A stretch of DNA of 32,000 nucleotides from an uncultured Oscillospiraceae bacterium (GTDB taxonomy: Bacteria > Bacillota > Clostridia > Oscillospirales > Oscillospiraceae): NCBI GenBank assembly GCA_947628185.1, contig CANQYW010000001.1, positions 182,489 through 214,488 on the forward strand. Direction: 5' to 3'. A program made the position numbers and the translations under genes. Positions 13,473 to 32,000 of this stretch are shown here, piece by piece (within the stretch, counting starts at the first letter, position 1; each line of letters opens with the position of its first letter). A model generated the notes under the pieces. It worked only from the letters and a program-made list of their open reading frames with translations, had not been told where the DNA came from and ran no database searches.

Positions 13473-13487
13473 GGCGAGGGGGGGATA

Positions 13488-16747: not shown

Positions 16748-18751
16748 TTGAACAAGAAACCGATACGCCGCCCCGACATTGGGTTTTATATATTTATAAT
16801 CCTCATCCTTGTTGCCGCCATATACCTGCTCAGCAGTCCCGGTAACGACAGCGCCAGCGAGATAGAGTACTGGGAGATGGTGGAGCAGTTCAAGAGTGAG
16901 AACGTCTCATACTTCACCATCGACGACGGCGTCGTGCGCATGGAACTGCGCACCCCGATAGACGAGTACAGCGGTACCAGCGTCTATCACCAGCTCTACT
17001 CCCTCTCCGTGTTCTATGAGGACCTGGGTGACCTCATCAACGAGCAGCGCGACAGGGGCATACTCAAGTATAACTACGAGCCCGTGTACCAGACGCCCTG
17101 GTTCGTCACGATAATCCCCTACGTCATCATGATGGTGGTGTTCATCGCCCTGTGGTACGTCATGATGAACCGCGTGGGCGGCGGAGGAGGCGGCGGCAAC
17201 GGCGCCGGACGTTTCGGCAGGGCGAGAACGCGCCTGGCCTCCGAGGATAAGCGCAAGGTGACATTCGCGGACGTGGCCGGCGCCGACGAGGAGAAGGCGG
17301 AGCTGGAGGAGATAGTCGACTTCCTCAAGGCCCCCCAGAAGTACACCGCCCTCGGCGCCCGCATCCCCAAGGGCGTGCTCCTTGTGGGCCCCCCGGGCAC
17401 CGGTAAGACACTCCTTGCGAAGGCCGTGGCCGGTGAGGCCAACGTCCAGTTCCTCTCCATCTCCGGTTCCGACTTCGTGGAGCTATACGTGGGCGTCGGC
17501 GCCTCCCGCGTACGCGACCTCTTTGACCAGGCGAAGAAACTCGCCCCCGCCATCATATTCATCGACGAGATCGACGCCGTGGGCCGTCAGCGCGGCTCCG
17601 GCCTCGGCGGCGGCCACGACGAGCGCGAGCAGACCCTGAACCAGTTACTTGTGGAGATGGACGGTTTCAACACCAACGAGGGCGTCATCGTGATGGCCGC
17701 CACGAACCGCGCGGACATCCTGGACTCCGCCCTGCTGCGTCCCGGGCGCTTTGACCGTCAGGTCTTCGTGGGCGTCCCGGATATCCGCGGCCGCGAGGCC
17801 ATATTGAAGATCCACTCCCGGGGCAAGTCCCTGGGCGACGACGTGGACCTCGCCAGCATAGCCCGGGGCACACCCGGTTTCACAGGCGCGGACCTTGAGA
17901 ACGTGATGAATGAGTCCGCCCTCCTGGCCGCCAGGAACAACCGCCAGTTCATCACCATGGCGGACGTGGACGAGGCAATTTTGAAGGTCCAGATGGGCCC
18001 GGAGAAGAAGTCCAAAAAGATGAGCGAAAAGGCCCGCAAGCTCACCGCCTACCACGAGTCCGGCCACGCCGTCACCGGCATGTTCCTGGACCACGCCGAC
18101 CCCGTACACTATATAACCATCATCCCCCGCGGCCAAGCCGGCGGCTACACCCTCTTCAGGCCCCAGGAGGATCTGGAGAACTACAAGTCCCGTGAGGAGA
18201 TGTTTGACGACATCGTGATGGGCCTCGGCGGCAGGATATCCGAGAAACTCTTCCTGGACGACATCTCCACCGGCGCCTCCGGGGACATCCAGTCCGCCAC
18301 AAATATCGCCCGCTCCATGGTCACCCGCTACGGCATGAGCGACCGTCTGGGCCCCATAAGCTACGACAGCTCCGACCACTCCATATTCATAGGCAGGGAC
18401 TTCGGTACCACGAAGTCCTACTCCGAGGAGACCGCCGCCATCATCGACGAGGAGGTCAAGCACATCTTCGACGAGGCCGCCGTGAAGTGCGAGTCGATAC
18501 TGACCGAGCACCGCGAGCTCGTTGTGGCGGTGGCCGAGTACCTCCTGGAGAATGAGTCCATGGACGGCGAGACATTCAAATACGTCTGCACCCACAACGG
18601 CCAGCTCCCCCCCGAGGGGTGGGACCCGAAGGACCCGGACAAGGAGCCCGACAGCCCCATAATGAAGGAGATAAAGGCCGAGGCCCTTGAGGAGGCCCGC
18701 CGCAGGGAACTCGAGGAGCGCCGCCAGAATAACCCCTTCGATGATCAGTGA
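16748..18751 (+). CDS. ftsH: ATP-dependent zinc metalloprotease FtsH
   Basis: Two TM helices, Walker A GPPGTGKT, Walker B IIFIDEID and zinc motif HESGHA. TTG start. Confidence 0.95.
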
Positions 18752-20500: not shown

Positions 20501-20731
20501 ATGCAAGTTACCGCTACCGAATTCAAGCTGAACCTTGGCAAGTACCTGGAGCTCGTTCTGGCGGAGGACATCTGGATCACCAAAAATGGAAAAACCGTAG
20601 CTAAGCTCATTAACCCGAACATCTCCGCCGTTGACGCCATTTCCGGCGTCCTAGCCGGGAAGGTGCCCGCTGACCTCGACCGTCACGCTCTACGTGAAGA
20701 AAGGCTGTCAAAGTATGCGCTTGATGATTGA
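20501..20731 (+). CDS. Type II antitoxin, Phd/YefM-like
   Basis: 76 aa. The N-terminus VTATEFKLNLGKYLELV...IWITKNGKTVAKLI is typical of Phd/YefM antitoxins. Its stop overlaps the start region of the PIN gene. Confidence 0.75.
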   Translation: MQVTATEFKLNLGKYLELVLAEDIWITKNGKTVAKLINPNISAVDAISGVLAGKVPADLDRHALREERLSKYALDD

Positions 20732-21134
20732 CACGAACATCATCCTGGATGTCCTTATCCGCAGGGAGAATTTCTACGGCAACTCCAAAGCCGTCCTGTC
20801 CCTCTGCGAAGACCGCACTATCCAGGGGCTCGTGCCCGCCTCCGCCGTCACGGATATCTTCTATATCACCCGAAAAGCTCTCGGAAACACAGAGGACACC
20901 TACAGGGTAATTAGTTCGATCCTGAACATCGTCCGTATCCTGACAGTCACCAACGATGACGTCCTGAACGCATTCCAGGTCAAGGCAAAGGATTTTGAAG
21001 ACTGTCTGATGGCGACCTGTGCCAAATCCAACAAGTGCGACGGCATCGTCACACGGAACAAGAAGGATTTCCTGACCTTTGGCGTCACCCTTTATTCACC
21101 TGAGGAACTGCTGCAGCTCTTCGAGGAAACGTAA
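20715..21134 (+). CDS. PIN-domain ribonuclease toxin (VapC-like)
   Basis: MRLMIDTNIILDVL... (first PIN acidic motif) and C-terminal DCLMATCAKSNKCDGIVTRNKKDF. Start at ATG 20715 (alternative 20724) overlaps the antitoxin 3' end. Confidence 0.8.
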   Translation: MRLMIDTNIILDVLIRRENFYGNSKAVLSLCEDRTIQGLVPASAVTDIFYITRKALGNTEDTYRVISSILNIVRILTVTNDDVLNAFQVKAKDFEDCLMATCAKSNKCDGIVTRNKKDFLTFGVTLYSPEELLQLFEET

Positions 21135-21255: not shown

Positions 21256-21283
21256 TTGACAATACTTTTAGCTGTATTATAAT
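21256..21283 (+). promoter_or_regulatory. Consensus sigma-A type promoter
   Basis: Exact TTGACA (21256-21261), 16-nt spacer, exact TATAAT (21278-21283), about 44 nt upstream of ATG 21327. Confidence 0.6.
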
Positions 21284-21326
21284 AACATTAATTACAATAA
21301 ATTATAAAATTTTGGAGGTGTCTACC

Positions 21327-21692
21327 ATGTTCCCAGAACATATCCCAGCGTTTGACTGTCTCGATATTCCCAGTGAGAGGCACAAGGGACGCAGATACAT
21401 AGACTATGCTGTGGCCCTGATACTCGAAGATCCGAATAAACTGCACAATGTCACAAAAGGCCTCTATGCGGAGATTGCAGAGCACTTTGGGACTACACCG
21501 GGTCGTGTGGAGCATGGTATGCGCAATGTATGCCATGCGGTGTGGAATAATAGCTCCGAACTGCTGAAAGAATGGGCCGTCTATCCTCTGAATGAGAGAC
21601 CGTGTGTGACGCGACTCCTATCCATTCTTGTGTTTCATATTAAGCAGGATGACGCGGAATTTCAGGCTCTATTATGCCAGATTCGGAGGTAA
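21327..21692 (+). CDS. Stand-alone Spo0A C-terminal (Spo0A_C-like) DNA-binding domain protein, copy 1
   Basis: By eye, ...YIDYAVALILEDPNKLHNVTKGLYAEIAEHFGTTPGRVEHGMRNVCHAVW... aligns with the Bacillus Spo0A effector domain (...[50 protein letters not shown]...). No receiver domain. ATG 21327 follows GGAGG at 21314-21318. Confidence 0.7.
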   Translation: MFPEHIPAFDCLDIPSERHKGRRYIDYAVALILEDPNKLHNVTKGLYAEIAEHFGTTPGRVEHGMRNVCHAVWNNSSELLKEWAVYPLNERPCVTRLLSILVFHIKQDDAEFQALLCQIRR

Positions 21693-21698: not shown

Positions 21699-22037
21699 AT
21701 GGACGCGGGACATAACTCCATATTAGATCAGCTCGGCATTCGCAACGGAGAATATAAGGGCGGTGCATACACTGAGTATGCCGTTTCTTTGGTGCTCGAG
21801 GATTATAATAAGATGATAAATGTCACAAGGGTCCTCTACCCGGAGGTTGCGGAGCACTTTGGGACCACGCCGAGTTGCGTTGAGAGGGACATGCGCATGG
21901 TCGTTCAGAAAGCGTGGGAGAGAAATCCCGATCTGCTGTGCGAATGGGCGGGCTATCCCTTGAAAAGGAAACCGCCGGTGACAAGGTTTATCGCCATTCT
22001 GGCGGAATACTGCGAGCGGAACGGTATCGAGGTCTAA
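21699..22037 (+). CDS. Stand-alone Spo0A C-terminal (Spo0A_C-like) DNA-binding domain protein, copy 2
   Basis: Paralog of copy 1, roughly half identical by eye: YTEYAVSLVLEDYNKMINVTRVLYPEVAEHFGTTPSCVERDMRMVVQKAW. Its RBS GGAGG lies inside the end of copy 1. Confidence 0.7.
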   Translation: MDAGHNSILDQLGIRNGEYKGGAYTEYAVSLVLEDYNKMINVTRVLYPEVAEHFGTTPSCVERDMRMVVQKAWERNPDLLCEWAGYPLKRKPPVTRFIAILAEYCERNGIEV

Positions 22038-22104
22038 TTATGTGTTTCGGAGCAACATATACCGCCAAGATAGTAGGGCCCGGTCTTCTACTGTGAATCA
22101 AATA

Positions 22105-22706
22105 TTAGTCACAGAGTTTCTCGTTAAACAGTTCATAGTAGTTATCCTCATTTGCATATCTAAGATAATATCGAGTTGCATGATCTTTATGAATAATAAC
22201 ACCAGGATTCCCAACAACGATCGAATGAGACGGAATATCAAAATTAACATAAGCATTAGGGGCTATAAGAACATCATTTCCGATGTTGATATTCCCAACC
22301 ACCATTGCATTCATGCCTATCCAAACACAATTTCCTATAGTTGGGCAACCCTTTCTTTTACCACGGTTTTCCTGACCAACGGTACATCCTTTATGTAAAC
22401 TAACGCAGTTCCCTAAAATTGCCTGCGAGTTCACAGTAATCCCAAAAGCATGTCCTAAATACAAATATTTACCAATATTGGCCGTGTAGAGATCAAAACC
22501 ATATTTCTTCCCAATCACCCTAGACAGAACATGATATATCTTGGATATGATACCTTTGGAAGAATTCGACTTTCTTTGAAGAAATAAATATCTTAGTGAT
22601 GGTTCCTTAACAAAAGCCTTTACCCCCCCCCCAATTTATTTTTCTCAATTTTCTGTCCGTATTCAAATCTATACTGATGGTAATCATATTTGAAATAGCT
22701 TTTCAT
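22105..22706 (-). pseudogene. Hexapeptide-repeat (CysE/WcaB-like) polysaccharide O-acetyltransferase, frame interrupted at a G10 tract
   Basis: ATG 22706 (RBS GGAGG) opens a 28-codon frame ending in TAA immediately after the G10 run. One extra G (or two fewer) joins it to the 22105-22518 ORF. The joined product reads ...KNKLGGGVKAFVKEPSLRYLFLQRKS...VIGKKYGFDLY... plus left-handed beta-helix repeats. Confidence 0.75.
22623..22632 (-). repeat. Homopolymer tract, G10 on the coding (minus) strand
   Basis: Ten consecutive C on the + strand, counted directly. Confidence 0.95.
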
Positions 22707-22793
22707 AACAGAACCTCCGGTTAATAAATTAGCAAAAAGTTTTCTAAGTCCGACCAAATATTGTTGCGTCTATGTAATGGCGCAGTTTATGTT

Positions 22794-23906
22794 TTATAAT
22801 AGGGCCTTGTAGCGATTTAATGCCTCGGCGACTACCTGGTCCATGTCGTAATACTTGTACTCAGCGAGGCGGCCGCCGAAGATCACTTTTGTTTCGGCGG
22901 CGGCAAGTTTTTTGTACTCTGCATAAAGCGCTGTGTTCTTCTCATCGTTCACGGGATAGTAGGGCTCGTCGCCGGGTCTCCACTCTGAGCTGTATTCGCG
23001 GCTGATTACCGTTTTTGGCAGGTCGTTTCCGTTCTCGTCCTTGCCGAACTCAAACCATTTATGCTCAATGATGCGCGTCCAGGGAGTCTCGCGGTCGGTA
23101 TAGTTGACCGCCGCGTTGCCCTGGAAGTTGGGCCTATCGAGGACTTCGGTCTCAAATCGCACCGAACGATATTCCAGCGGGCCAAGCTTATAGCCGAAAT
23201 AAGCGTCGATGGGGCCGGTATAGACCACCGTCTCGGCGAGCTTGTCAAGCTCCGCCTTGTGCTCGAGGTAATCGACACCCAGCCGCACCTCGATGCCCTC
23301 AAGCATTCGTTCCACCATCTTCGTGTAGCCGCCAATGGGGATACCCTGGTAGAGGGCGTTGAAGTAGTTGTTATCAAAGGTGAACCGCACTGGAAGGCGC
23401 TTTATTATGAACGCTGGAAGGTCGCGACAGGCTCTCCCCCACTGCTTTTCCGTGTAGCCCTTAACGAGCTTTTCGTAGATGTCAGTACCCACGAGGGAGA
23501 TGGCCTGTTCCTCAAGATTTTGGGGGTTCGTGATGCCGGCGGCTCTCCGCTGTTCCTCGATCTTCGCCGCCGCCTCCTCCGGCGTCACCACGCCCCACAT
23601 GCGGTTGAAGGTGTACATGTTGAAGGGCAGAGAGTACAGTTCGCCCCTGAAGTTCGCTACGGGACTGTTCGTAAAACGGTTAAATTCGGCGAATTGGTTG
23701 AGATAGTCCCAAACTTCTTTGTTGTTCGTGTGGAAGATGTGCGCGCCGTATTTGTGGACGTTTATACCTTCGATACGCTCAGTATAGACATTCCCGGCGA
23801 TGTGAGGGCGTCTCTCCACGACGAGCACGGACTTTCCGGCGGCGTGGGCGAGGTTTGCGAATGTGGCGCCATAGAGCCCGGCGCCGACGACGAGGTAATT
23901 ATACAT
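22794..23906 (-). CDS. glf: UDP-galactopyranose mutase
   Basis: N-terminal FAD fold MYNYLVVGAGLYGATFA and characteristic ...HKYGAHIFHTN... and ...YYPVND... segments; 370 aa. Confidence 0.95.
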   Translation of the reverse strand: MYNYLVVGAGLYGATFANLAHAAGKSVLVVERRPHIAGNVYTERIEGINVHKYGAHIFHTNNKEVWDYLNQFAEFNRFTNSPVANFRGELYSLPFNMYTFNRMWGVVTPEEAAAKIEEQRRAAGITNPQNLEEQAISLVGTDIYEKLVKGYTEKQWGRACRDLPAFIIKRLPVRFTFDNNYFNALYQGIPIGGYTKMVERMLEGIEVRLGVDYLEHKAELDKLAETVVYTGPIDAYFGYKLGPLEYRSVRFETEVLDRPNFQGNAAVNYTDRETPWTRIIEHKWFEFGKDENGNDLPKTVISREYSSEWRPGDEPYYPVNDEKNTALYAEYKKLAAAETKVIFGGRLAEYKYYDMDQVVAEALNRYKALL

Positions 23907-23928
23907 AGCGATTTTCCTTTACATTTAC

Positions 23929-24984
23929 TCACTTATTTTGTTCTGATTCGACCATCTTCTGATCTAACAACTCGGCCACTCTCCCCTCCTGTCCTCGGGA
24001 AACCATAATGGCATCTTTACTGAAACGGTCTATCTTCCACTGGTTATAACCAGCTCCAACCGTCTCCTGATCGGATCTTAACGTGACGTCGCCGCCAAAC
24101 AGGGCCCTCCCCTTCATCTCGCTGTAGTACAGGGTCTTGCCCTCCACGGCATACATCACCGTTAGTAGATCCCAACTGCTTCGCGTAAAACCATTCTGTT
24201 TATTGCTGTAGAGCTCGTAAGCGGCTCTTACCGGGTTATTTTCACTTAATTCGCCTATTCTTTTCCCGGTCATAACGGATTCGCCTATTTCGTAACCGCA
24301 CCACATGATATGGGCGGGGAAATTTTGTGATACGAACTCGGCCGCCTCAGGCGCCAGACTGATATTGTACTCCCCCTGCGGTTTTGATTCCGGAAACTGC
24401 CCACCCATTATGACGCACAACTTTACTTTCTTCCTCACAAGGTCTACGCCATTTAGCGAACTATGTGAATCTCCCTCAGAGCGCAATAGATCATACAGAT
24501 TATTGAGCGGCCCCACCACTACGATCACCACGCTGCCATTGTCCGCGCCCGCGAGGCATTTGCGATAGACATCTACAGCCGATCCCGCATTTTTGTCTGA
24601 AAGAATATCATTTTCAAAGTTCTCGGATATGTATTTCTGATACCTCGACGTACCCTTGTCCGGGCAATCGGGAGATATCCCTATTGGAATATCAGGTAAA
24701 CCATAGTAGGTGTTTATTGCGTCAATACATGGCGCCGTATAGCCTGTATTACAGGAGCCGACAGCCGCCAAAAGTTCAGCTCTGCCCTCCCGAATGTACG
24801 AATGGAGGATCGCGAGCGCGCCTACGTCGTCCACATCAGTGTCCATATCTGTATCAAAAATAATTTTCACTGTCTCGTCAGGCGTGTATCTATATGCTCC
24901 AAGTTCCTTCCTGGCGCACACTCCCACAAGCAATACAAATATAGACACCGCAAACAATATACCGATAAACCGCTTTTTACTCAT
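23929..24984 (-). CDS. Membrane-anchored or secreted nucleoside-hydrolase-fold (IUNH-like) protein
   Basis: N-terminal hydrophobic anchor FIGILFAVSIFVLLVGV, then the aspartate cluster IFDTDMDTDVDDVGALAILH typical of inosine-uridine nucleoside hydrolase-like proteins. Confidence 0.6.
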   Translation of the reverse strand: MSKKRFIGILFAVSIFVLLVGVCARKELGAYRYTPDETVKIIFDTDMDTDVDDVGALAILHSYIREGRAELLAAVGSCNTGYTAPCIDAINTYYGLPDIPIGISPDCPDKGTSRYQKYISENFENDILSDKNAGSAVDVYRKCLAGADNGSVVIVVVGPLNNLYDLLRSEGDSHSSLNGVDLVRKKVKLCVIMGGQFPESKPQGEYNISLAPEAAEFVSQNFPAHIMWCGYEIGESVMTGKRIGELSENNPVRAAYELYSNKQNGFTRSSWDLLTVMYAVEGKTLYYSEMKGRALFGGDVTLRSDQETVGAGYNQWKIDRFSKDAIMVSRGQEGRVAELLDQKMVESEQNK

Positions 24985-25005
24985 ACAACTTGCTCCGATG
25001 TACGC

Positions 25006-26430
25006 TCACAGTCTCCCGCGATACTTTGAGATCTTTTGAAGGATCTCAGTTAGTTCCCTCCGATTTGCGACCAGGTATACGCAATACACCGCAAAATATA
25101 TGATCCCGGCTTTCCAGAGGCTGAAACACATATTTGCCGCGATAAACACCGCGGACAGGACGCACTCCCAGGCCGTGACTCCGTCCATGGAGATCCGGTA
25201 GTTTCTCGATATCGCCATATTCGCTAAGATGCTCCTCAGCGCCACGCAAAACACCATTGCCAGCACCAATGCGTTCAAACTTTTAACGACAAACACACTC
25301 ACAGCGCAGAGCACGGTGCTCGTCACGAGGGAAACTGCGTTTATCGCCAAAAGGCTCCTCTCTTTTCGGAGAACTTTCAGGTATGTGGAGTACAAAAGCT
25401 GCATTTTTCCGTCAAAAACGCACACCGGAAGGAGCCAGGACATGTAACCGAGGCTCACCTCGTACTGGGGCAGCCACATGCCCAGGAGTTTCCTCATGGG
25501 TATGAACAGCACCATGACGAAACAGAGAAGAAAACTCGAATTCTTCCTGAGTGACACAAAGAGCTGTTTTGCCTTGTCCGGCTCGATCTGTCTCAGGGCC
25601 GGGAACATGACCATGCTCACCTGTGATATGAACTGTAAAAAGAAGTTCGTCAGGGAAATGGCAAAGGACAATAGCCCAAACTCCGTTATGGTCTGGGTCA
25701 TGTCCACAAAGATCCGCCCGATGCCGAGGATGAGACTGCTGGCTATATTGGATACTGTCAGATTTATCCCGACCCGGATATTTATCCAAGCCTCCCGCAG
25801 GGACCTACCGGGTGATACGCCGCCCGCGAAGATGAAACTCCGGCTCTTTATGAGGCAATAGAGCGACGCCGCAAGCTGGGACACCACAAAAAGGACGATA
25901 TAGATCTCGAACCGCCTCTGGCGCGTAAAGAGCAGAAAGGCGATGCAGAGGATGAAGGCCACCTTGGAGATGATAGTCGAGAGCGAGTAGACCCTCGTCC
26001 TGTTCGCCGCCTGATAGACGTACCCCCAGAACCAACAGGTGTTGGCAAGGAGCAGATAGACGGCTATGCAGATCCACACGAGCCGGCGCTCCGGCGAGGC
26101 AGTGGTGAGCACGACGACCGGCAGCAGGACGGCGCAGATAACCGTCTGCCAGAGCAGCATGAGCCGGTACTGGGAACCTATCAGCGGCTTATCAAGCTCG
26201 TCAAGCTCCTTCCCTCCGTAGCGAAGATATATCCCGTCCGACATCCCAAAATGGAAGAACCCCACATAACCGCTGTAGAACATGAATAGCTGCCAATAGG
26301 AGAATTGCTCCACGCCCAAAAGTTTCGGTATGAGCAGTGACGTCAGGACGCTGGCCACAAGGCTTATGGTCTGCGCCGCGAAGGCGACGGCAACATTTTT
26401 CGCAAATCTCGATGCTTTAGATTCAGACAT
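25006..26430 (-). CDS. wzx: Polysaccharide flippase (Wzx, MOP superfamily)
   Basis: 474 aa and about 12-14 TM. N-terminus ...FAKNVAVAFAAQTISLVASVLTSLLIPKLLGVEQFSYWQLF... is typical of Wzx-type flippases, and the gene lies in a glycan locus. Confidence 0.8.
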   Translation of the reverse strand: MSESKASRFAKNVAVAFAAQTISLVASVLTSLLIPKLLGVEQFSYWQLFMFYSGYVGFFHFGMSDGIYLRYGGKELDELDKPLIGSQYRLMLLWQTVICAVLLPVVVLTTASPERRLVWICIAVYLLLANTCWFWGYVYQAANRTRVYSLSTIISKVAFILCIAFLLFTRQRRFEIYIVLFVVSQLAASLYCLIKSRSFIFAGGVSPGRSLREAWINIRVGINLTVSNIASSLILGIGRIFVDMTQTITEFGLLSFAISLTNFFLQFISQVSMVMFPALRQIEPDKAKQLFVSLRKNSSFLLCFVMVLFIPMRKLLGMWLPQYEVSLGYMSWLLPVCVFDGKMQLLYSTYLKVLRKERSLLAINAVSLVTSTVLCAVSVFVVKSLNALVLAMVFCVALRSILANMAISRNYRISMDGVTAWECVLSAVFIAANMCFSLWKAGIIYFAVYCVYLVANRRELTEILQKISKYRGRL

Positions 26431-26435
26431 TTAAT

Positions 26436-28340
26436 TTATCCCTTATTAAACCGGCGTTTCAGTATAAAATAGATGCGCTCATAGGGCAGGGGCAATTTTA
26501 TAAGGCGTTTCATAAAGCCTATCTTCCACATGCTGGATATAAAATCTCCCTTGAGCCGCCCCGGGTCTCTCAAGTATTCCCGGAGTTTTGCGGGGCGGGC
26601 GATAAGCATTATCAAATTGTCAAACACCCTGAAGTCGCCCCACAAATTTGCCTGCCAGAGGGTGGGGCTGAGACACATGTCCGTGAAGTTATACCAAGCG
26701 GCGTCCGGCGGGATGGGTGGGAGCCCGCCCGGGAATGACGCGGCCAAGTCCCTCACGAACTCCAGCGCGCCGCTCTGGTACTCCCGCATTATAGATATCT
26801 CGTCACAGCACTTTCCATCGCGGCTCTCGTACTCGAAGTCATACATCACCGGCGCGGGTCTCCCGTCCACCTTGACGAAACGCTTGACGGAGCCGTGCTG
26901 ACCTAAGAAGATCGACTCAAAGATCGGCACGAAACAGCTGAGCTTATTCACGAACTCCTCGTTCTTGCCCCGCTCGTGGAGATAGCCCGAGGCCCGGATG
27001 ACGCCATTGTTCACCAGCGGCGCGTCGGGTGAGACGCCCACATAGTACCCCCGCACCTCGATGCCGAGACCGGACTCGCGTATGAGCTCCTGGAGGCCGT
27101 TCTGCATCGTCCCGTGGCGGCCTATGTCCACCACCGCTATGCGCTCCGCCATATGGAGGGAGGAGATATACTCCAAAAGCGCGTCGTACTCGTCTTTGGA
27201 GTTCTCCACCACCAGATCGCGGACGGAGTCATAGAACTTGGACACCCTATCTGAGGTCTTAAATGTCCCGTGCTCAAAAACCTCGTCCAAATCTACCCCG
27301 CAGGCGGCGGCGCGGTCCCGGCAGTCCTCCGGCTCCAGGCCCAGCCTCAGTATGAATGTGCGGAGGGTCATCCGGTCCTGGAGGGTTATATTCTTGAATA
27401 TCTCATGGAGCTCCGGGTGTTTCCAGATGAGGGGCACGGTGTAAGACCGGCGGGAACAGTAGAGGTAGTGGGTGGAGAACCCCTCCCCGTACACCGCGTC
27501 AAAAGCCTGTTTCATGGTGTAACCGTCCCGGGACATGAAATATACGTCCCTGATGCCGTCCCCCTCCAGCCGCCGCGCCAGCCACTGGGTGAAACCCGCT
27601 AAGAGCGGGCCGAAGGTTTTAGCGCCCAAGCTGGCGTATGTACCCATCCCGGGGGACACGTTCTCTATAGCGGCGGCGAGAGTGCGGTAAATGAGGGCGC
27701 TCTGGGGCGCCAGCCCCTTCGGGACGGCGCAGAGCTCCTTCCTGGCGCCGGGTACGCGCCGCGCGTGTATCCCCATGGAGCGCGGGATGAGAAAGTCGCT
27801 CTTTCTGTTGTCCCCAAAGTGCGCGAGCTCTCCGGCGGAGATGCCAAGGTCCTTCAATACCGCCCGGTAGAGGGATCCGTCGGCCTTCGTGCGTGACTCC
27901 TCGCAGGAGACGTAGAGCCGCTTATAGCCCCGGACGCCGCACTTCTCCAGCATCTTCCCGATGAACGACGAGGGGAGGTACATGTCCGATATTAGCACCA
28001 CCGTCCGGCCCTCCTCCAGGCAGCGGTCAAAAAGGCCCACATACTCAGGATCAGGCCGGCAGCCCATGAGCTCAAAGCTCAGTTCCCTCTCCATGAGCTC
28101 CCCCGCCGGGGCACCAAGCTGAGAGCCAAGTTCGGCGTAAATATCCGCAATCGTGACAGGCGTTCTGGACTTCGCCGCGGCGGCCCTCTCCGCCACGATA
28201 CGCAGCTCGGCAAACCCCGCCGGGACGTCCCCGCAGCAGTGCTCCATCATGCGGAAGATGTCCGTGGGTCTCGCGACGCTGCGTTTGATGAGGGTGTCGA
28301 AGACATCAAAGGAGACGTATGTCTGCTTAATTTTTTGCAT
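26436..28340 (-). CDS. HAD-superfamily hydrolase domain protein with a large uncharacterised C-terminal region (COG5610-like, recalled)
   Basis: HAD motif I FDVFDTLIKR, motif II LISD, and motif III/IV K...GDNRKSD in the first 200 aa. The remaining 430 aa are unassigned. Confidence 0.55.
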   Translation of the reverse strand: MQKIKQTYVSFDVFDTLIKRSVARPTDIFRMMEHCCGDVPAGFAELRIVAERAAAAKSRTPVTIADIYAELGSQLGAPAGELMERELSFELMGCRPDPEYVGLFDRCLEEGRTVVLISDMYLPSSFIGKMLEKCGVRGYKRLYVSCEESRTKADGSLYRAVLKDLGISAGELAHFGDNRKSDFLIPRSMGIHARRVPGARKELCAVPKGLAPQSALIYRTLAAAIENVSPGMGTYASLGAKTFGPLLAGFTQWLARRLEGDGIRDVYFMSRDGYTMKQAFDAVYGEGFSTHYLYCSRRSYTVPLIWKHPELHEIFKNITLQDRMTLRTFILRLGLEPEDCRDRAAACGVDLDEVFEHGTFKTSDRVSKFYDSVRDLVVENSKDEYDALLEYISSLHMAERIAVVDIGRHGTMQNGLQELIRESGLGIEVRGYYVGVSPDAPLVNNGVIRASGYLHERGKNEEFVNKLSCFVPIFESIFLGQHGSVKRFVKVDGRPAPVMYDFEYESRDGKCCDEISIMREYQSGALEFVRDLAASFPGGLPPIPPDAAWYNFTDMCLSPTLWQANLWGDFRVFDNLIMLIARPAKLREYLRDPGRLKGDFISSMWKIGFMKRLIKLPLPYERIYFILKRRFNKG

Positions 28341-29649
28341 AGGCTTGCGGCCTCCTCTTCACTGGTACTATGCGAAATCTGATTTGTTTTTCCACAACAA
28401 GTTTGTAAAGTATGTAGGTGATCATGATTTTGAATACAAAACCAAAAGATACGATGTTGGAATAGAAGAAGTTATTATACATATACAGAATGGCACAATA
28501 ATAAATTTGGCAGAAAATAATAATAGGAAGATTACTCCGTTTCTTTTTTGTGTACTCATAGAAAACCGAGTATATAAGCGAGAATAAAGCGTGAAGAACG
28601 AAAACGCCAATCATTCCAAAGTCGTAATGGTAATCACGTAACGCCGTATATATGTTCCCTGTACTTACACCGGCAACAGACCTAAACTCCTTATGGAAAA
28701 TATAACTTTCTATATCAACGATTCCCACACGTCTAAGTGCGTTGAGTAGGGAATAAAACGTTTCTTTTCCCCAGATATCTGACTTCATAGGCGGGTTATT
28801 CAAATAAAGGTCAAGGTTGACAACGCCTGTTCCCATGTAATGCGCCGTATAATCGAGAAGTGTAGCATCGCTCACGCGGCCCACAAATTCCTTTACAAAA
28901 TAAAAAAACCACGCCGCGACAACCACAATCAGCATTACACGCATAAGAAAGCCAAATTTATAAGTTTTATACTTTCCCAAGCGTTGAATGCGTGTCATGT
29001 GGAACAGAAAGATACCGGCAATTATGTTTGACAGTATAGAAAACCGCCCACTGGTAAGCAAACTGGACAGGACTGTAAGGGCCAAAAACACAACCTGTAA
29101 AATTATTTCACGGACCTTGAACGAGCGGAAGAACTTGATCAGGTTGAACATATACAAAATACATAATGCCTGCAACAGATTCATCGTCAGCCGCAGCCAC
29201 AACGGGTACTGCGCGTCCACATCGGTGGAATATCCATGCGCGTTTCGATAGGAGGTCATGATCTGCCCGAACATTCCCGATGTTCCCGCCACGCGAGTGA
29301 TCTCCCGCAGCTGAGCGATAATCACAACAACCGCCACGAGCAGCGCAAAAAATGTAAAGCCTTTTGGAATTGGGCTTGACTTGTCCTGCACAGGACGGAT
29401 CCGAATATGCTGAAACGCGCTGCGACAGAACATCCCAATAACCACGCTCAGCGTCATGCACGAACCAATGAGCACGGTCGTCTGTAAGCTAAAAGAATAG
29501 TCGAGGTCAAACAGGATATAGATACTCAAACTGCACGCAAAAATAAAACCGAGAATCATCATCGTGGACGGTGCGAAGAAGTCCCGCCCGGTCAGGTAAT
29601 AGCTGATGTAAAAGAGCGCGATCAGCCATATAAATAAAACTATCTGCAA
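28327..29649 (-). CDS. wzy: Oligosaccharide repeat-unit polymerase (Wzy-like)
   Basis: 440 aa, about 10-12 TM, very AT-rich, no soluble domain, placed between glycosyltransferases and wzx. TTG start after GGAAGGTGGG. Confidence 0.65.
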   Translation of the reverse strand: MQIVLFIWLIALFYISYYLTGRDFFAPSTMMILGFIFACSLSIYILFDLDYSFSLQTTVLIGSCMTLSVVIGMFCRSAFQHIRIRPVQDKSSPIPKGFTFFALLVAVVVIIAQLREITRVAGTSGMFGQIMTSYRNAHGYSTDVDAQYPLWLRLTMNLLQALCILYMFNLIKFFRSFKVREIILQVVFLALTVLSSLLTSGRFSILSNIIAGIFLFHMTRIQRLGKYKTYKFGFLMRVMLIVVVAAWFFYFVKEFVGRVSDATLLDYTAHYMGTGVVNLDLYLNNPPMKSDIWGKETFYSLLNALRRVGIVDIESYIFHKEFRSVAGVSTGNIYTALRDYHYDFGMIGVFVLHALFSLIYSVFYEYTKKKRSNLPIIIFCQIYYCAILYMYNNFFYSNIVSFGFVFKIMITYILYKLVVEKQIRFRIVPVKRRPQAYAKN

Positions 29650-29677
29650 GACATTCCCACCTTCCGTCTACTCACCC

Positions 29678-30217
29678 TTATCCCCTGGCAAACGCCCTAT
29701 AAAACCCATCCCGTTTCGCGTCCAAGCGGTCTTTGCGGAACCTTTGGGCCTCCGCGAAATTCCGACGAGCTACGCGGAGCCGCAGGTCCGGCTCCAGCAT
29801 CTTCCGCAAAATATCCGCCAACTTCCGGTAGTCCCCTCTCGGGAACAAAAACTCCCGCTCGATTAGCTCGTAATTCCCGCCCACGTCGCAGGCGGCCACG
29901 GGACACGCCCGGCTCATGGCCTCCACTATCGAGCGGCAGAGGCCCTCGCTGAGGCTCGGGTGGACGTAGACGTCTATCCCGTCGTACCACTCAAAGGTCC
30001 TGTCGTGGGGCAGCAGGCCCAGGAGTTTCACCTGGTCCTCCACGCCCAGACGCCGGGATATATCCTCTATCCGCCCGGGGTCCCCGCCGCCGATGATCTG
30101 ATACTCTATCCCCGTAATGCCCTCGTCCTTCAGCTCTTTTATCGCCCTAATGACGGTCTCGTGGCCCTTGAACTTTAAATTCACATGGGCCGCCGTCCCG
30201 ATTATCAACTTGCTCAT
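29678..30217 (-). CDS. Free-standing GT4 (GT-B fold) C-terminal half-domain protein
   Basis: MSKLIIGTAAHVNLKFKGHETVIRAI...EGLCRSIVEAM (EX7E motif) is a paralog of the C-terminal half of the upstream GT4. ATG 30217 has RBS GAGGAAGG 5 nt upstream; the alternative ATG 30244 overlaps the upstream stop. No N-terminal Rossmann half is encoded. Confidence 0.7.
   Translation of the reverse strand: MSKLIIGTAAHVNLKFKGHETVIRAIKELKDEGITGIEYQIIGGGDPGRIEDISRRLGVEDQVKLLGLLPHDRTFEWYDGIDVYVHPSLSEGLCRSIVEAMSRACPVAACDVGGNYELIEREFLFPRGDYRKLADILRKMLEPDLRLRVARRNFAEAQRFRKDRLDAKRDGFYRAFARG
29894..29937 (-). repeat. 44-nt perfect direct repeat, copy 1 (EX7E-coding segment)
   Basis: CACGCCCGGCTCATGGCCTCCACTATCGAGCGGCAGAGGCCCTC is identical to 30467-30510. 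Confidence 0.9.
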
Positions 30218-30466
30218 AAAAACCTTCCTCAAATCGTATATCATGACCTCATATAGAGGTTGTAGAATTCATCCCGCTTGCGGTCAAGGACCGTCTTCTG
30301 GTACTTGTGGGCGCGCTCAAAGTTAAGTTTCGCGCTCCGGGCCTGCTCATCTTTCTCCATCATCCGCTTTATGCTCCCGGCGAGCCCATTTATATCGCCG
30401 GCCCTAAAGAGGCAGTCGGAGTGGACGAGCTCGTAGTTCCCGCCCACGTCGCTGGCGATCACGGGG

Positions 30467-30510
30467 CACGCCCGGCTCATGGCCTCCACTATCGAGCGGC
30501 AGAGGCCCTC
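30467..30510 (-). repeat. 44-nt perfect direct repeat, copy 2 (EX7E-coding segment)
   Basis: Identical to 29894-29937; the flanking ~115 nt are also far more similar than the rest of the paralogs. Confidence 0.9.
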
Positions 30511-30777
30511 CTGGTAGCTCGGCTGGACGTAGACGTCCACGGTATCCATCCACTGGGCCACCTGCTCGTGGGGCAGCGCCCCGATGATATGTACCTGGTC
30601 CTCGACACCCATCCGCCTACTCACACTTCTCAAATATTCGCCGGTCCCGATCCCGATGAGGTGATACTCGATGTTCGTGATCCCCTCCCGTTTCAGCCGG
30701 GCGAGGGCCTTTATGACGGTGTCCTGGCCTTTCCAGCGCACATCCAACAGCGCGGCCGTGCCTATGATTAGCTTATA

Positions 30778-30786
30778 CCCCCCCCC
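30778..30786 (-). repeat. Homopolymer tract, G9 on the coding (minus) strand
   Basis: Nine consecutive C on the + strand, counted directly. Confidence 0.95.
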
Positions 30787-31490
30787 GCGATTTTCTTCAG
30801 CCGGTTCTCCAGGATCTCGCTGTCCATATCATCCAGTTCCACATCGGAGCAGCCTATTGAGAGCCCACCGCATGGGTAGCGCTTTTGCAGGGCCTCGTCC
30901 GTCACGTACACGGCGTAGGGCACGTCCTTTAACACGCGGCGGCACTTCAATTCCCTCGGTCCCGCCACCAGCTTGCCCCGCAGGCTGTGGTACCAGAGGC
31001 CCTCCCAGGCGAACCCGGTGACCTCCACCAGGTAGACCTTGCGGTATTTCCGGGCGTACTTCAGGGCCGTACTCGTGTACACGTTGCCGACGGAGCGGAT
31101 GATCACCCGGTCCGCTTTCCTCACTTCCCGCTCTATCGTGCTGTCGATCTGGCGCCGGTACGCCAAGTTCAGGCAGTTCGCCGCCGGACGGTAGATGTCA
31201 GGCAGCGCCACCAGCGCGGAGCGGCGGGCGTCGTAGAAATTGAATCTCTCCGCCGCCTCCTGGGGGTCGTATATCCTCTGTTCACGCCTGAGAATGACCG
31301 TCAAATGGTCGCAATAGCTCCTGTAGCGTTCCCAGATATGCTCGTTGAAGTTGCTGTCGGTGTAGGCGTTCCCCTCCGTGTCGAATTTCCACCGGGACCC
31401 GCCCTGGATGAATAGCAGATTCATGCGGCAATACCTCCGGTAATGGTACTGCGGCATGAAACCGCCTGGGTGTACGGTAAATATACGAAT

Positions 31491-32000
31491 TCAAGTTCGT
31501 ATATTACCCCCCCCCGCCCCGAATTTCTTGGCGGTGTACTTCGTCTGGATCACTTTATATATCCTCCCCGCGTTGTAGGCGAAACGCATACCGAGGTATG
31601 TACACCTCGCCCCGTAAAGATTCTTCGCCCTGAGTTCCGGGGACTTGTCCCGGGCCACCACGTCGCGGTATTTAAGCAGCGAATCCCAGACCTTCTCCAG
31701 GGAGTCCGTGTCCTCCGGCGGGATTTGGATGAACACCTGGTAATTCACCGAGAAGGCCCTGGCGTAGGCGGCATCTTTAAGCGTCTCGTCATAAGCCATG
31801 ATATCCCCGACGACCCTCTCGCCCACCTTGACGCATATGAGTTTCGCCGGGGTGAACTTCATATGCACTATGCTGTCCGCGCGGACACGGTAGGCGTATG
31901 TGCGGCACTCCAGGAGCGCGATTTTTTCCGCGCGCATGAAGGCGCGGTGGGTGGTGGCGGCGTCCTCAAAGAGCCAGCCCGTTGGGAAACGCAGTCCATC
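31491..32000 (-). CDS. GT2 family glycosyltransferase, C-terminal part (partial, 5' end beyond the window)
   Basis: The frame is open to the window edge (...DGLRFPTGWLFEDAATTHRAFMRAEKIALLE...), typical of the region after the GT-A catalytic core. It ends ...KKFGAGGGNIRT*. Confidence 0.65.
   Translation of the reverse strand, partial: DGLRFPTGWLFEDAATTHRAFMRAEKIALLECRTYAYRVRADSIVHMKFTPAKLICVKVGERVVGDIMAYDETLKDAAYARAFSVNYQVFIQIPPEDTDSLEKVWDSLLKYRDVVARDKSPELRAKNLYGARCTYLGMRFAYNAGRIYKVIQTKYTAKKFGAGGGNIRT
31507..31515 (-). repeat. Homopolymer tract, G9 (then C, then G4) on the coding (minus) strand
   Basis: Nine consecutive C on the + strand, followed by G and CCCC, counted directly. Confidence 0.95.

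What the first reader, a model, noticed from the sequence alone, without database searches (positions are those of the whole stretch)
22105..32000. Three G9-G10 tracts cluster in one polysaccharide operon: candidate multi-switch phase variation of a surface glycan
Seen: the three longest homopolymers in the window are G10 at 22623-22632, G9 at 30778-30786 and G9 at 31507-31515. All have G on the coding strand of glycan genes (O-acetyltransferase, GT4, GT2). By eye, no other G or C run exceeds 7 (G7 at 13478-13484, C7 at 18607-18613), although the other 22 kb is at least as GC-rich. Two tracts sit exactly at reading-frame breaks. Established: poly-G tracts of this length cause slipped-strand ON/OFF switching of capsule, LOS and glycosylation genes in Campylobacter, Neisseria and Haemophilus. 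To my knowledge this is poorly documented for Gram-positive anaerobes. Inference: independent switching could give combinatorial glycan variants (acetylated or not, GT4-dependent sugar present or not). Caveat: both broken frames are repaired by the same +1 G change, which is also the signature of systematic homopolymer under-calling in an assembly.
Basis: partly seen in the sequence, partly recalled or inferred. Interest (0 to 1): 0.75.

Follow-up and report, generated by a model that had tools for sequence, protein, structure and literature searches.

The report
Poly-G switches in a gut-bacterial glycan locus
Three runs of 9-10 G sit in the genes that decorate a surface polysaccharide of a Clostridia-like bacterium, and the same runs occur at the same codons, with different lengths and reading-frame states, in related gut bacteria. 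They therefore look like genuine slipped-strand ON/OFF switches, a mechanism hardly documented in this group.

Summary
C10 at 22623-22632, C9 at 30778-30786 and C9 at 31507-31515 (G on the minus, coding strand) are the only G/C runs longer than 7 in 32 kb. All three lie in a 10-kb Wzx/Wzy polysaccharide locus, whose G/C run lengths go 1-5 and then 9, 9, 10.

- **T1** splits a hexapeptide O-acetyltransferase. It is in frame at G8/G11 and out of frame at the assembled G10.
- **T2** splits a GT4 glycosyltransferase in its inter-domain linker. It is in frame at G7/G10 and out of frame at G9.
- **T3** lies seven codons before the GT2 stop and breaks nothing.

The tracts are conserved at orthologous codons elsewhere, with other lengths. 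The acetyltransferase tract is G9 (in frame) in a related MAG, and G8 versus G9 in two otherwise identical contigs. The GT4 tract is G9 (in frame) in a 73%-identical gene from a 36%-GC contig.

In 80 mostly human-gut metagenome loci of this acetyltransferase family, 30 of 32 distinct G/C runs of 8 or more are G on the coding strand. Several contig pairs with no substitutions differ only at these tracts.

Best explanation: slipped-strand phase variation. It is a new member of a known kind, in gut Firmicutes. No reads were available, so the OFF/OFF state of this assembly is unverified.

The parts
22623..22632 (-). T1: G10 tract at codons 25-28 of the O-acetyltransferase gene. As assembled it is out of frame (GGG TAA stop directly after the tract); G8 or G11 is in frame.
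   Evidence: An orthologous tract at the same site is G9 in frame in L012/L013/L014, G8 versus G9 in L015/L016, and G8 in L017/L018.
22105..22706 (-). Hexapeptide-repeat (EpsC/WcaB/CysE-like) O-acetyltransferase gene, 200 aa when repaired. GC is 37%, so it is probably horizontally acquired.
   Evidence: Pfam Hexapep. NCBIfam EpsC, cysE and WcaB hits are all below their cut-offs. A full-length 200-aa homologue, P0144, is 86% identical. GC.
22794..23906 (-). UDP-galactopyranose mutase (Glf). Implies galactofuranose in the glycan.
   Evidence: Pfam GLF, 275 bits.
23929..24984 (-). Nucleoside-hydrolase-like protein (IU_nuc_hydro).
   Evidence: Syntenic in L012.
25006..26430 (-). Wzx-type flippase (Polysacc_synt).
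   Evidence: An identical protein is encoded on an independent ENA contig, L010.
26436..28340 (-). 634-aa protein with an N-terminal HAD-like domain, function unknown. A homologue is conserved in L012.
28327..29649 (-). Oligosaccharide repeat-unit polymerase (Wzy-type).
   Evidence: NCBIfam TIGR04370, 127.6 bits against a cut-off of 40.
29678..30217 (-). Stand-alone GT4 C-terminal (donor-binding) domain gene, 179 aa, with its own RBS (GAGGAAGG) and the EX7E motif retained. It is 54% identical to the C-half of the upstream GT4, and the alignment starts exactly after the T2 tract.
   Evidence: Conserved intact at 71% identity directly after the tract-bearing GT4 of L017. Decayed in L003 and absent in L004, where the tract is interrupted or absent.
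30241..31424 (-). GT4 glycosyltransferase gene, 394 aa when repaired. Start ATG 31424, with GGAGG nine nucleotides upstream.
   Evidence: There are 736 homologues at E <= 1e-10; the 120 best listed are nearly all 392-419 aa and cover 98-100% of the query. 73% identical to the GT4a of L017.
30778..30786 (-). T2: G9 tract encoding the Gly3 of the linker between the N- and C-terminal Rossmann domains of GT4. G9 is out of frame (stop after 3 codons); G7 or G10 is in frame.
   Evidence: Same codons in L017: ATG GGG GGG GGT, G9 and in frame. In L003: GGA GGG GGC, interrupted. In L004: no tract.
31507..31515 (-). T3: G9 tract in the non-conserved C-terminal tail of the GT2, 83-91 nt upstream of the GT4 start. 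G9 gives tail ...GAGGGNIRT*. G10 gives ...GAGGG*. G8/G11 gives a 31-32-residue extension that ends at the TGA of the ATGA overlapping the GT4 start.
   Evidence: The tail is not conserved in homologue P0264. No promoter-like site.
31491..32000 (-). 3' part of a GT2 glycosyltransferase gene. The N-terminus lies beyond the window.
   Evidence: P0265 carries PF00535 and overlaps identically.
31414..31505 (-). Two predicted RNA hairpins between the GT2 stop and the GT4 start. Hairpin 1: 31480-31505, -8.3 kcal/mol. Hairpin 2: 31414-31466, -29.6 kcal/mol; it pairs the GT4 AUG and two nucleotides of its SD.
   Evidence: 141-nt region, MFE -58.2 against -37.2 +/- 3.7 in shuffles, z = -5.7.

Best explanation
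The window holds the distal part of a Wzx/Wzy-dependent surface-polysaccharide locus that includes galactofuranose synthesis. The host is a Firmicute of the Clostridia type (SpoVK-like and Spo0A_C genes; core GC about 60%).

Two of its 'decorating' genes carry poly-G tracts on the coding strand that act as slipped-strand contingency switches:
- a hexapeptide O-acetyltransferase (T1);
- a GT4 glycosyltransferase (T2).

Gain or loss of one G during replication moves the gene between an in-frame state and a truncated state. T1 is in frame at G8/G11 and T2 at G7/G10. In the truncated states a TAA or TAG follows within 0-6 codons.

The assembled sequence shows both switches OFF. Independent switching would give up to four glycan variants: with or without O-acetyl, and with or without the GT4-dependent sugar.

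T3 is a tract of the same kind, but it lies in the dispensable 3' tail of the GT2, at the junction where a GT4 + C-domain module was inserted. It does not inactivate the GT2. Any effect would fall on the tail or on translation of the downstream GT4.

**Shown:** tract positions, frames, non-randomness, conservation of T1 and T2 at orthologous codons with different lengths and states, and length polymorphism between otherwise identical contigs of related loci.

**Inferred:** reversibility, switching within a population of this organism, and the phenotypic outcome.
For: 1. **Non-random.** Three runs of 9 or more where 0.11-0.18 are expected; no runs of 6-8 in the locus; a G10 inside a 37%-GC gene.
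2. **Repair restores real proteins.** The repaired GT4 aligns over 98-100% of its length to homologues that are nearly all 392-419 aa. The tract falls in the variable Gly-rich inter-domain linker. The repaired acetyltransferase matches the 200-aa P0144 at 86% over 100% of its length.
3. **T1 is conserved with variable length.** L012 comes from MAG GCA_947623805.1 and is 76% identical at DNA level over flippase-hydrolase-Glf-acetyltransferase.
   - L012, L013 and L014 have G9, in frame.
   - L015 has G8 and L016 has G9; their flanks are identical and both are out of frame.
   - L017 and L018 have G8, out of frame.
4. **T2 is conserved.** The GT4a of L017 (73% identical, contig GC 36%) has ATG GGG GGG GGT at the same codons, G9 and in frame. 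More distant homologues have GGA GGG GGC or no tract.
5. **Family-wide pattern.**
   - Of 88 loci with a hit to this acetyltransferase family (80 of them from the metagenome scan, mostly human gut), 32 carry G7 or longer in the N-terminal region.
   - An automated call put 21 in frame and 11 out of frame. That call over-counts in-frame states because of alternative start codons.
   - In all 97 related loci retrieved (678 kb), 30 of 32 distinct G/C sites of 8 or more are G on the coding strand.
6. **Hypermutability.**
   - L038 against L051: 4788 nt, 0 substitutions, 2 indels, both at poly-G tracts.
   - L015/L016 and L066/L072: 0 substitutions, with the tract as the only indel.
   - One tract site shows G7, G8, G9 and G10 across nine contigs that are 94-100% identical.
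7. **Out-of-frame lengths in the relatives deviate both ways** (+1, -1, +/-2), so there is no uniform under-call.
8. **The rest of the window shows no broken genes.** None of the 29 homopolymers of 6-7 nt lies at an ORF break.
Against: - No reads are available, and no second assembly of this species covers any of the three tracts.
- Both broken frames are repaired by +1 G, which is what homopolymer under-calling would produce.
- Several comparison contigs have only 2-5x coverage (L016, L013, L014, L066), so some length differences could be sequencing error. L051, however, has about 36x.
- OFF/OFF could also mean decaying genes.
- T3 causes no frame break in a catalytic domain and has no orthologue to compare.
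- The organism and the sequencing chemistry of the source assembly could not be established.
Confidence: 0.75

Rival explanations
1. Assembly or sequencing miscall. The tracts are real, but the true lengths in this organism are G11 and G10, so both genes are intact and the frame breaks are 1-base homopolymer under-calls.
For: Both breaks are repaired by the same +1 G. Long G runs are error-prone on every platform. Some related contigs that differ in length have only 2-5x coverage.
Against: None of the 29 runs of 6-7 nt in the window lies at an ORF break. The related assemblies from what appears to be the same project are SPAdes 'NODE' contigs, which implies Illumina, where systematic under-calling is not expected (this is an inference). 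Out-of-frame states in the relatives deviate in both directions, and one member of a substitution-free contig pair that differs only at its tracts has about 36x coverage. Even if this rival were true, it would change only the current state, not the hypermutable nature of the tracts.
Confidence: 0.15
2. Gene decay. The acetyltransferase and the GT4 are horizontally acquired genes being lost. The poly-G runs are just mutational hot spots where inactivating frameshifts became fixed, with no adaptive switching.
For: Mosaic GC (37-60%) indicates acquired DNA. Related loci do contain clear pseudogenes, namely the split GT4 of L015 with a linker deletion and the decayed C-domain of L003. Many homologues are out of frame in assemblies.
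Against: Apart from the single frameshift, both genes are intact over their full length, with no further stops or deletions. The tracts are kept as pure G runs at the same codons in lineages only 65-76% identical at DNA level, and in 36-45% GC backgrounds where GGG codons are disfavoured. That argues for maintenance by selection. In-frame and out-of-frame alleles coexist among near-identical contigs.
Confidence: 0.07
3. Recoding rather than DNA switching. Transcriptional slippage or ribosomal frameshifting on the G run yields some full-length protein from a fixed 'out-of-frame' gene.
For: Long homopolymers can cause RNA-polymerase slippage. The question was raised for bifidobacterial G-tracts (PMC9187656).
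Against: DNA-level length differences are seen directly between otherwise identical contigs. In the bifidobacterial case the switch was attributed to replication slippage (abstract). Nothing here tests RNA.
Confidence: 0.03

Closest known systems
Campylobacter jejuni poly-G contingency genes in capsule, LOS and flagellin-glycan loci (e.g. Cj1295; PMC3068675)
   Same: G8-G11 intragenic tracts, several per glycan locus, in modifying enzymes. Frameshift ON/OFF switching gives combinatorial surface glycans.
   Different: That host is a low-GC Gram-negative pathogen, and switching there was shown experimentally. Here the host is a Clostridia-like Gram-positive commensal-type organism, the evidence is comparative only, and the tracts are almost always G on the coding strand.
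Neisseria gonorrhoeae pgtA pilin galactosyltransferase poly-G tract (PMC2193922)
   Same: A poly-G run inside a glycosyltransferase coding region switches addition of one sugar.
   Different: Different GT family, and a protein glycan rather than a polysaccharide. No duplicated domain lies next to it.
E. coli K1 NeuO capsule O-acetyltransferase (PMC9659370)
   Same: A horizontally acquired O-acetyltransferase of a surface polysaccharide is switched by slipped-strand mispairing of an intragenic repeat. It protects against phage.
   Different: The repeat there is a heptanucleotide (in frame every third unit), not a homopolymer, and it is prophage-borne in a Gram-negative.
Bifidobacterium breve sortase-pilus G-tracts (PMC9187656)
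   Same: An intragenic G-tract replication-slippage switch in a Gram-positive gut commensal. Genome assemblies show the out-of-frame state.
   Different: That organism is an actinobacterium and the genes are pilus genes, not glycan genes.
Streptococcus pneumoniae serotype 15B/15C wciZ (TA)n switch (from my own knowledge, not checked here)
   Same: A Gram-positive capsule O-acetyltransferase toggled by a simple sequence repeat.
   Different: A dinucleotide repeat, and one switch per locus.
Bacteroides invertible-promoter control of capsule loci (reviews PMC11868660 and PMC12413058)
   Same: Phase-variable surface polysaccharides in gut commensals. Functionally analogous bet-hedging.
   Different: The mechanism there is site-specific inversion of promoters that switches whole loci, not slippage inside individual decorating genes.

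Membership tests
Simple-sequence-repeat (homopolymeric tract) contingency locus / slipped-strand phase variation | A homopolymer of about 7-8 nt or more inside a coding region or promoter, longer than composition predicts. | tested here: met
   G10, G9, G9. Expected 0.11-0.18 runs of 9 or more in the locus. No runs of 6-8. G10 lies in a 37%-GC gene.
Simple-sequence-repeat (homopolymeric tract) contingency locus / slipped-strand phase variation | A +/-1 change in repeat unit moves the gene between a full-length and a truncated reading frame. | tested here: met
   Met for T1 (in frame at G8/G11) and T2 (in frame at G7/G10). Not met for T3, which changes only the C-terminal tail.
Simple-sequence-repeat (homopolymeric tract) contingency locus / slipped-strand phase variation | Tract length is polymorphic among close relatives while the flanks are conserved. 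| tested here: met
   Met in orthologues and homologues: L012-14 G9, L015 G8, L016 G9, L017 G8/G9. One site shows G7-G10 across nine 94-100% identical contigs. L038/L051, L015/L016 and L066/L072 have 0 substitutions with indels only at the tracts. Not testable for this species itself.
Simple-sequence-repeat (homopolymeric tract) contingency locus / slipped-strand phase variation | Within-population length heterogeneity and reversible switching, linked to a phenotype. | not testable with these tools
   No reads, cultures or glycan analysis.
GT4 (GT-B fold) glycosyltransferase | A C-terminal Glycos_transf_1 domain with the EX7E motif, preceded by an N-terminal Rossmann-like acceptor domain. | tested here: met
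   PF00534 at 85.6 bits and PF13692 at 88.1 bits on residues 221-365 of the repaired protein. EGLCRSIVE is present (sequence). Full-length alignment to homologues of about 394-397 aa. NCBIfam equivalogs are all below their cut-offs, so specificity is unknown.
Hexapeptide-repeat (left-handed beta-helix) O-acetyltransferase, EpsC/WcaB/CysE-like | Hexapeptide repeats, and a match to a curated acetyltransferase model. | tested here: inconclusive
   Pfam Hexapep 29.9 bits against a cut-off of 27 (met). NCBIfam EpsC 87 against 150, cysE 70 against 211, WcaB 57 against 195: all below cut-off. The superfamily is clear, but substrate and subfamily are not assigned.
Wzx/Wzy-dependent polysaccharide locus | A flippase, a repeat-unit polymerase and glycosyltransferases in one co-directional cluster. 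| tested here: met
   Polysacc_synt 39 bits against 28.2. TIGR04370 polymerase 127.6 against 40. GT2, GT4 and Glf are present. The initiating transferase and chain-length regulator are not in the window.
Two-polypeptide (split) GT-B glycosyltransferase, Alg13/Alg14-like (considered only for the novel reading) | N- and C-terminal Rossmann domains are made as separate proteins that assemble into an active enzyme. | not testable with these tools
   A separate C-domain gene with its own RBS exists and is conserved in L017. The T2-OFF product is an N-domain ending at the linker. Assembly and activity are untested.

The most novel reading that the evidence does not exclude
The tracts may do more than ON/OFF switching. 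They may re-wire the module composition of the glycosyltransferase.

**T2.** It sits exactly at the N/C domain boundary of the GT4, and a second, stand-alone C-terminal (donor-binding) domain gene follows. In the four lineages seen:
- a pure G tract co-occurs with an intact stand-alone C-domain (window, L017);
- an interrupted tract co-occurs with a decayed C-domain (L003);
- no tract co-occurs with no C-domain (L004).

So T2-OFF might release a free N-domain that pairs in trans with the alternative C-domain, switching the donor sugar instead of deleting it.

**Related loci.** These place G tracts between a complete enzyme and a duplicated C-terminal (sub)domain:
- the L012 GT is 328/331 aa at G8/G10 and becomes a 509-aa N-C1-C2 fusion at G9;
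- L028 has a TupA-like ATP-grasp protein with a G9 tract before a partial duplicate domain.

**T3.** It may be a frame-dependent translational-coupling switch. Only in the G8/G11 frame does GT2 translation run through a -29.6 kcal/mol hairpin that pairs the GT4 start codon, and it then terminates at the overlapping AUGA.
Probability: 0.15. Interest if true: 0.85.

Novelty: new member of a known kind. Interest (0 to 1): 0.62.

Why it matters
Phase variation of surface glycans in gut commensals is known almost entirely from invertible promoters in Bacteroides. The 2025 reviews consulted mention no slipped-strand switching of glycan genes in gut Firmicutes.

The evidence here suggests that poly-G contingency tracts in O-acetyl/acyl-transferases, glycosyltransferases and ATP-grasp decorating enzymes are common in Firmicute polysaccharide loci of the human gut, and that they vary between samples. 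If so:

1. Strain-level surface antigen and phage-receptor diversity in abundant, poorly cultured Clostridia would be generated at high rate by a mechanism that metagenomic pipelines currently discard as frameshifts or pseudogenes.
2. The question becomes directly testable from existing read sets by tabulating tract lengths.
3. The domain-boundary placement next to duplicated domains hints at a richer switch logic than simple ON/OFF.

Tried and rejected
- **Exact-protein look-ups** for window genes (Glf, DnaB, the HAD-like protein, the N-terminal GT4 fragment) found no indexed contig. The source is an NCBI contig of 214,488 bp whose proteins are singletons or near-singletons at 90% identity. 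The rest of the genome and its taxonomy could not be retrieved.
- **The one genome-contig scan**, used on the repaired GT4, returned only 26-27%-identical hits in Bacteroidales and Bryobacterales. It was uninformative.
- **Two independent low-coverage ENA contigs of the same organism** (L010, L011) stop short of every tract.
- **GT2 tail search** gave two hits only, with no orthologous T3.
- **Rfam:** no family in the window.
- **Promoter scan:** no sigma-70-like site at T3, so a promoter-spacer switch was rejected.
- **Possible inverton.** A 26-nt imperfect inverted repeat (22058-22083 / 31513-31538) brackets the locus and was considered as an inverton. It was rejected as chance, because its quality equals that of seven other pairs in the same scan and the core is a 12/13 match.
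- **Representative search with the stand-alone C-domain** showed mostly full-length GT4 proteins of about 390 aa and a few short ones. It could not tell fragments from true stand-alone domains.
- **Literature:** six of the seven full-text searches looked for prior descriptions (the seventh was for analogues). Together with two reviews, they found no description of this phenomenon in Clostridia, Lachnospiraceae or Oscillospiraceae. Absence from this library is not proof of absence.
- **The automated in-frame/out-of-frame call** over-calls in-frame states where an alternative start exists in a second frame. An example is the window's T1 at G9, with the ORF MITISIDL... Its counts are approximate.

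Full report
**1. The observation**

The window is 57.8% GC. Its only G/C homopolymers longer than 7 are C10 at 22623-22632, C9 at 30778-30786 and C9 at 31507-31515 on the + strand. That is G10, G9 and G9 on the minus strand, which is the coding strand of every gene between 22105 and 32000.

The other 22 kb is more GC-rich (60.0% against 52.7%) and has none.

In the 9.9-kb locus, 0.11 (independent bases) to 0.18 (first-order Markov) runs of 9 or more are expected, giving Poisson P of 2e-4 to 8e-4. The G/C run-length distribution there is 1-5, nothing at 6-8, then 9, 9, 10. T1 lies in a gene of 37% GC and 31% GC3. The cluster is real and is not a product of composition.

**2. The genes**

On the minus strand, upstream to downstream:
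- the 3' part of a GT2. It has no Pfam hit of its own. P0265, which is 100% identical over the overlap of about 25 residues and continues upstream, carries PF00535;
- a GT4 glycosyltransferase;
- a stand-alone GT4 C-terminal domain gene;
- a Wzy-type repeat-unit polymerase (TIGR04370);
- a 634-aa HAD-like protein;
- a Wzx flippase;
- a nucleoside-hydrolase-like protein;
- UDP-galactopyranose mutase;
- a hexapeptide O-acetyltransferase (EpsC/WcaB/CysE-like, below all equivalog cut-offs).

The rest of the window carries housekeeping genes: DnaB, FtsH, L9, TilS, AsnRS-type synthetase, GdpP, a SpoVK-like ATPase and two Spo0A_C-only proteins. This fits a Clostridia-type Firmicute. I could not name the organism.

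The locus has mosaic GC (37-60%), so at least parts were acquired horizontally.

**3. Frames**

- **T1.** ATG 22706, then 24 codons, then TTG + G10. G10 reads GGG TAA and stops. G8 or G11 gives a 200-aa protein continuous with ORF 22105-22518.
- **T2.** G9 reads ...GCG GGG GGG GGT ATA AGC TAA. G7 or G10 gives a 394-aa protein joining ORFs 30768-31457 and 30241-30747.
- **T3.** It lies seven codons before the GT2 stop. G9 gives ...GAGGGNIRT*. G10 gives ...GAGGG*. G8/G11 adds 31-32 residues and stops at the TGA of an ATGA that overlaps the GT4 start.

The third is not.

**4. Are the repaired proteins real?**

The repaired GT4 has 736 homologues at E <= 1e-10. The 120 best listed are nearly all 392-419 aa and cover 98-100% of the query. 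In the alignment the tract encodes the Gly-rich, variable linker just before the first strand of the C-terminal domain, KLIIGTAA.

The repaired acetyltransferase matches the 200-aa P0144 at 86% over its whole length. Several homologues in the database are called only from the Met that follows the tract, like the 137-aa ORF here.

**5. Comparative test: T1**

P0144 lies on MAG contig L012 (GCA_947623805.1). L012 is collinear and 76% identical at DNA level with window 26431-22109, covering flippase, hydrolase-like gene, Glf and acetyltransferase.

| Locus | Sequence or length at the T1 site | State |
|---|---|---|
| L012, L013, L014 | AAA TGG GGG GGG GTA (G9) | in frame |
| L015 (second MAG) | G8 | out of frame; in frame would be G7/G10 |
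| L016 (ENA contig, flanks identical to L015) | G9 | out of frame |
| L017, L018 (Logan contigs, 32-36% GC) | G8 | out of frame; in frame would be G9 |

The tract is thus kept at one site across sequences only 64-86% identical in protein, in very different GC backgrounds, with lengths 8, 9 and 10.

**6. Comparative test: T2**

L017 also carries a GT4 that is 73% identical to the window's over all 394 residues. At exactly the same codons it has ATG GGG GGG GGT AAC, which is G9 and in frame there.

More distant homologues have GGA GGG GGC (L003) or AAA GGA GGA (L004) at that position. In a 36%-GC contig, three consecutive GGG/GGT glycine codons are not what codon usage would give.

**7. Family-wide picture**

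A metagenome scan with an alignment of this acetyltransferase family returned 80 loci, mostly from human-gut assemblies.

- Of the 88 loci in which the family is detected, 32 have G7 or longer in the N-terminal region. An approximate automated call put 21 in frame and 11 out of frame.
- Across all 97 related loci retrieved (678 kb), 30 of 32 distinct G/C sites of 8 or more are G on the operon's coding strand.
- Besides this acetyltransferase, the tracts sit in a second hexapeptide acetyltransferase family, a membrane acyltransferase, TupA-like ATP-grasp enzymes and GTs.
- One tract is intergenic, upstream of an LPXTG protein.
- Sites with identical 15-nt flanks differ in length between samples:
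  - G7/8/8/9/9/9/9/9/10 at one site;
  - G9 or G10 at a second;
  - 9/9/10, 9/9/8 and 7/8/10 at three further sites;
  - 8/10, 8/7 and 8/9 at three sites represented by two contigs each.
- Three contig pairs have 0 substitutions and differ only at the poly-G tracts:
  - L038 against L051, over 4788 nt, with two indels;
  - L015 against L016;
  - L066 against L072.
- Out-of-frame lengths deviate from in-frame lengths in both directions.

This is what is expected of hypermutable tracts. It is difficult to reconcile with a uniform under-calling artefact, although some of these contigs have low coverage.

**8. What this means for the window**

T1 and T2 are best read as slipped-strand contingency switches of two decorating steps, O-acetylation and one GT4-dependent sugar. 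The assembly's consensus state is OFF/OFF. I put 0.75 on this.

The remaining uncertainty is that no reads and no second genome of this species were reachable. The specific lengths G10 and G9 could therefore each be 1-base miscalls (rival 1). The genes could also be decaying (rival 2). Against decay, both genes carry no other lesion, and the tracts are maintained as pure G runs across lineages.

None of the 29 homopolymers of 6-7 nt elsewhere in the window lies at an ORF break.

**9. T3 and the junction**

The GT2 tail after GRIYK is not conserved in the only homologue found (P0264, 69% identical). In that relative the GT2 is followed directly by the Wzy homologue (L099). The GT4 + C-domain module of the window is therefore an insertion, and T3 lies at its upstream junction.

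The 90 nt between T3 and the GT4 start are predicted to be highly structured. The 141-nt region folds at -58.2 kcal/mol against -37.2 +/- 3.7 in shuffles, z = -5.7. A -29.6 kcal/mol hairpin (31414-31466) pairs the GT4 AUG and part of its SD.

Only in the G8/G11 frame does GT2 translation traverse this hairpin, and it then ends at the AUGA overlap. A frame-dependent translational-coupling switch is therefore conceivable. It rests on a structure prediction alone and has no comparative support.

**10. The duplicated C-domain**

Directly after the GT4 lies a 179-aa gene (29678-30217). It has a strong RBS and an intact EX7E motif, and it is 54% identical to the GT4 C-half, with the alignment starting exactly after the tract.

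| Locus | Linker tract | Stand-alone C-domain |
|---|---|---|
| Window | pure G run | intact |
| L017 | pure G run | intact (71% identical) |
| L003 | interrupted | decayed |
| L004 | absent | absent |

C1 and C2 share a 110-nt segment that is 90% identical.

In L012 a different GT has N-C1-[G9]-C2. G8 or G10 ends the protein right after the tract (328 or 331 aa), and G9 fuses the second C-domain (509 aa).

These observations suggest that some tracts switch module composition, and hence perhaps donor specificity, rather than simply destroying the enzyme. With four lineages and no biochemistry this is a lead, not a finding. I give it a probability of about 0.15.

**11. Comparison with what is known**

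Mechanistically this is the classical homopolymeric-tract contingency locus, as in:
- Campylobacter glycan genes (PMC3068675);
- gonococcal pgtA (PMC2193922);
- the NeuO O-acetyltransferase, which uses a heptanucleotide repeat (PMC9659370);
- among gut Gram-positives, the Bifidobacterium breve pilus G-tracts (PMC9187656).

The 2025 phase-variation review and the 2025 review of gut cell-surface polysaccharides discuss gut commensals only in terms of Bacteroides inversions. Neither mentions SSR switching of glycan genes in Firmicutes. My other searches found none.

I therefore file it as a new member of a known kind, in an under-described host group and apparently widespread in human-gut metagenomes.

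**12. Verdict**

- Observation: confirmed.
- Interpretation: supported for two of three tracts by independent comparative evidence. The state in this assembly is unverified.
- Interest: 0.62. The mechanism is familiar. However, its prevalence in gut Firmicute glycan loci, the coding-strand bias and the domain-boundary architecture are unexpected enough to merit a read-level follow-up.

Noticed in passing
window 29678-30217 (-); L017:6721-7266; L003:6663-6992: A stand-alone GT4 C-terminal domain gene with its own RBS lies directly after the tract-bearing GT4. It is intact where the linker tract is a pure G run (window, L017), decayed where the tract is interrupted (L003) and absent where there is no tract (L004).
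   Followed up: partly
window 29865-29974 and 30428-30537: A 110-nt segment is 90% identical between the stand-alone C-domain gene and the C-half of the GT4, although the proteins are only 54% identical overall. This may reflect gene conversion around the EX7E region.
   Followed up: no
window 31414-31505 (-): Two predicted RNA hairpins lie between the GT2 stop and the GT4 start. The second (-29.6 kcal/mol) pairs the GT4 AUG. Only the G8/G11 frame of T3 lets GT2 translation run through it to an AUGA overlap.
   Followed up: partly
window 22615-22631, 30770-30786, 31500-31506; L012, L015, L017 tracts: The G runs are typically followed by TA(A/T): GGGTAAAGG, GGGTATAAG, GGGTAATAT. Out-of-frame readings therefore stop within 0-6 codons. 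In the related loci, 12 of 30 distinct G tracts are followed by TA.
   Followed up: partly
L012:432-1961 and L012:1958-2399: In the related MAG, a G9 tract lies between two tandem GT C-domains: 509-aa fusion at G9, 328/331 aa at G8/G10. A G10 tract splits a second hexapeptide acetyltransferase, which would be in frame at G9/G12. That locus therefore also carries three tracts.
   Followed up: partly
L028:2084, L032:2030, L044:3518: TupA-like ATP-grasp genes in gut metagenome loci carry G9-G11 tracts at their C-terminal end. In L028 one frame reads on into a partial duplicate of the domain.
   Followed up: no
L038:4528 and relatives: A polymorphic G9/G10 tract lies in the intergenic region between the acetyltransferase stop and a gene for an LPXTG-anchored surface protein.
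   Followed up: no
L099 against window 28327-32000: In a relative, the GT2 homologue (69% identical) is followed directly by the Wzy homologue. The GT4 + C-domain module of the window is therefore an inserted cassette. The same cassette sits in a different context in L017.
   Followed up: partly
window 21312-21692 and 21699-22037 (+); 21256-21283: Two tandem small ORFs consist only of a Spo0A C-terminal DNA-binding domain. They lie next to the glycan locus on the opposite strand, behind a perfect TTGACA-16-TATAAT promoter match. They may be regulators of the locus.
   Followed up: no
window 20501-21134 (+): A Phd/YefM antitoxin plus PIN-domain toxin pair lies at the boundary between the housekeeping region and the low-GC glycan region.
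   Followed up: no
window 23929-24984 (-) against L011 / P0142: The same nucleoside-hydrolase-like gene on a contig from another sample lacks nine residues (IFDTDMDTD) of the Asp-rich N-terminal motif. This is either a natural in-frame deletion variant or a low-coverage artefact.
   Followed up: no
window 22105-22706 (-): At G9, the catalytic part of the acetyltransferase is in frame with an alternative ATG (MITISIDLNTDRKLRKINWGG...) that has no obvious RBS. Strictly, then, only G7/G10/G13 closes all upstream starts.
   Followed up: no
L089:6035-6060: A C26 run lies near a contig end in one metagenome contig. It is probably a sequencing or assembly artefact and is unlike the intragenic G8-G11 tracts.
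   Followed up: no
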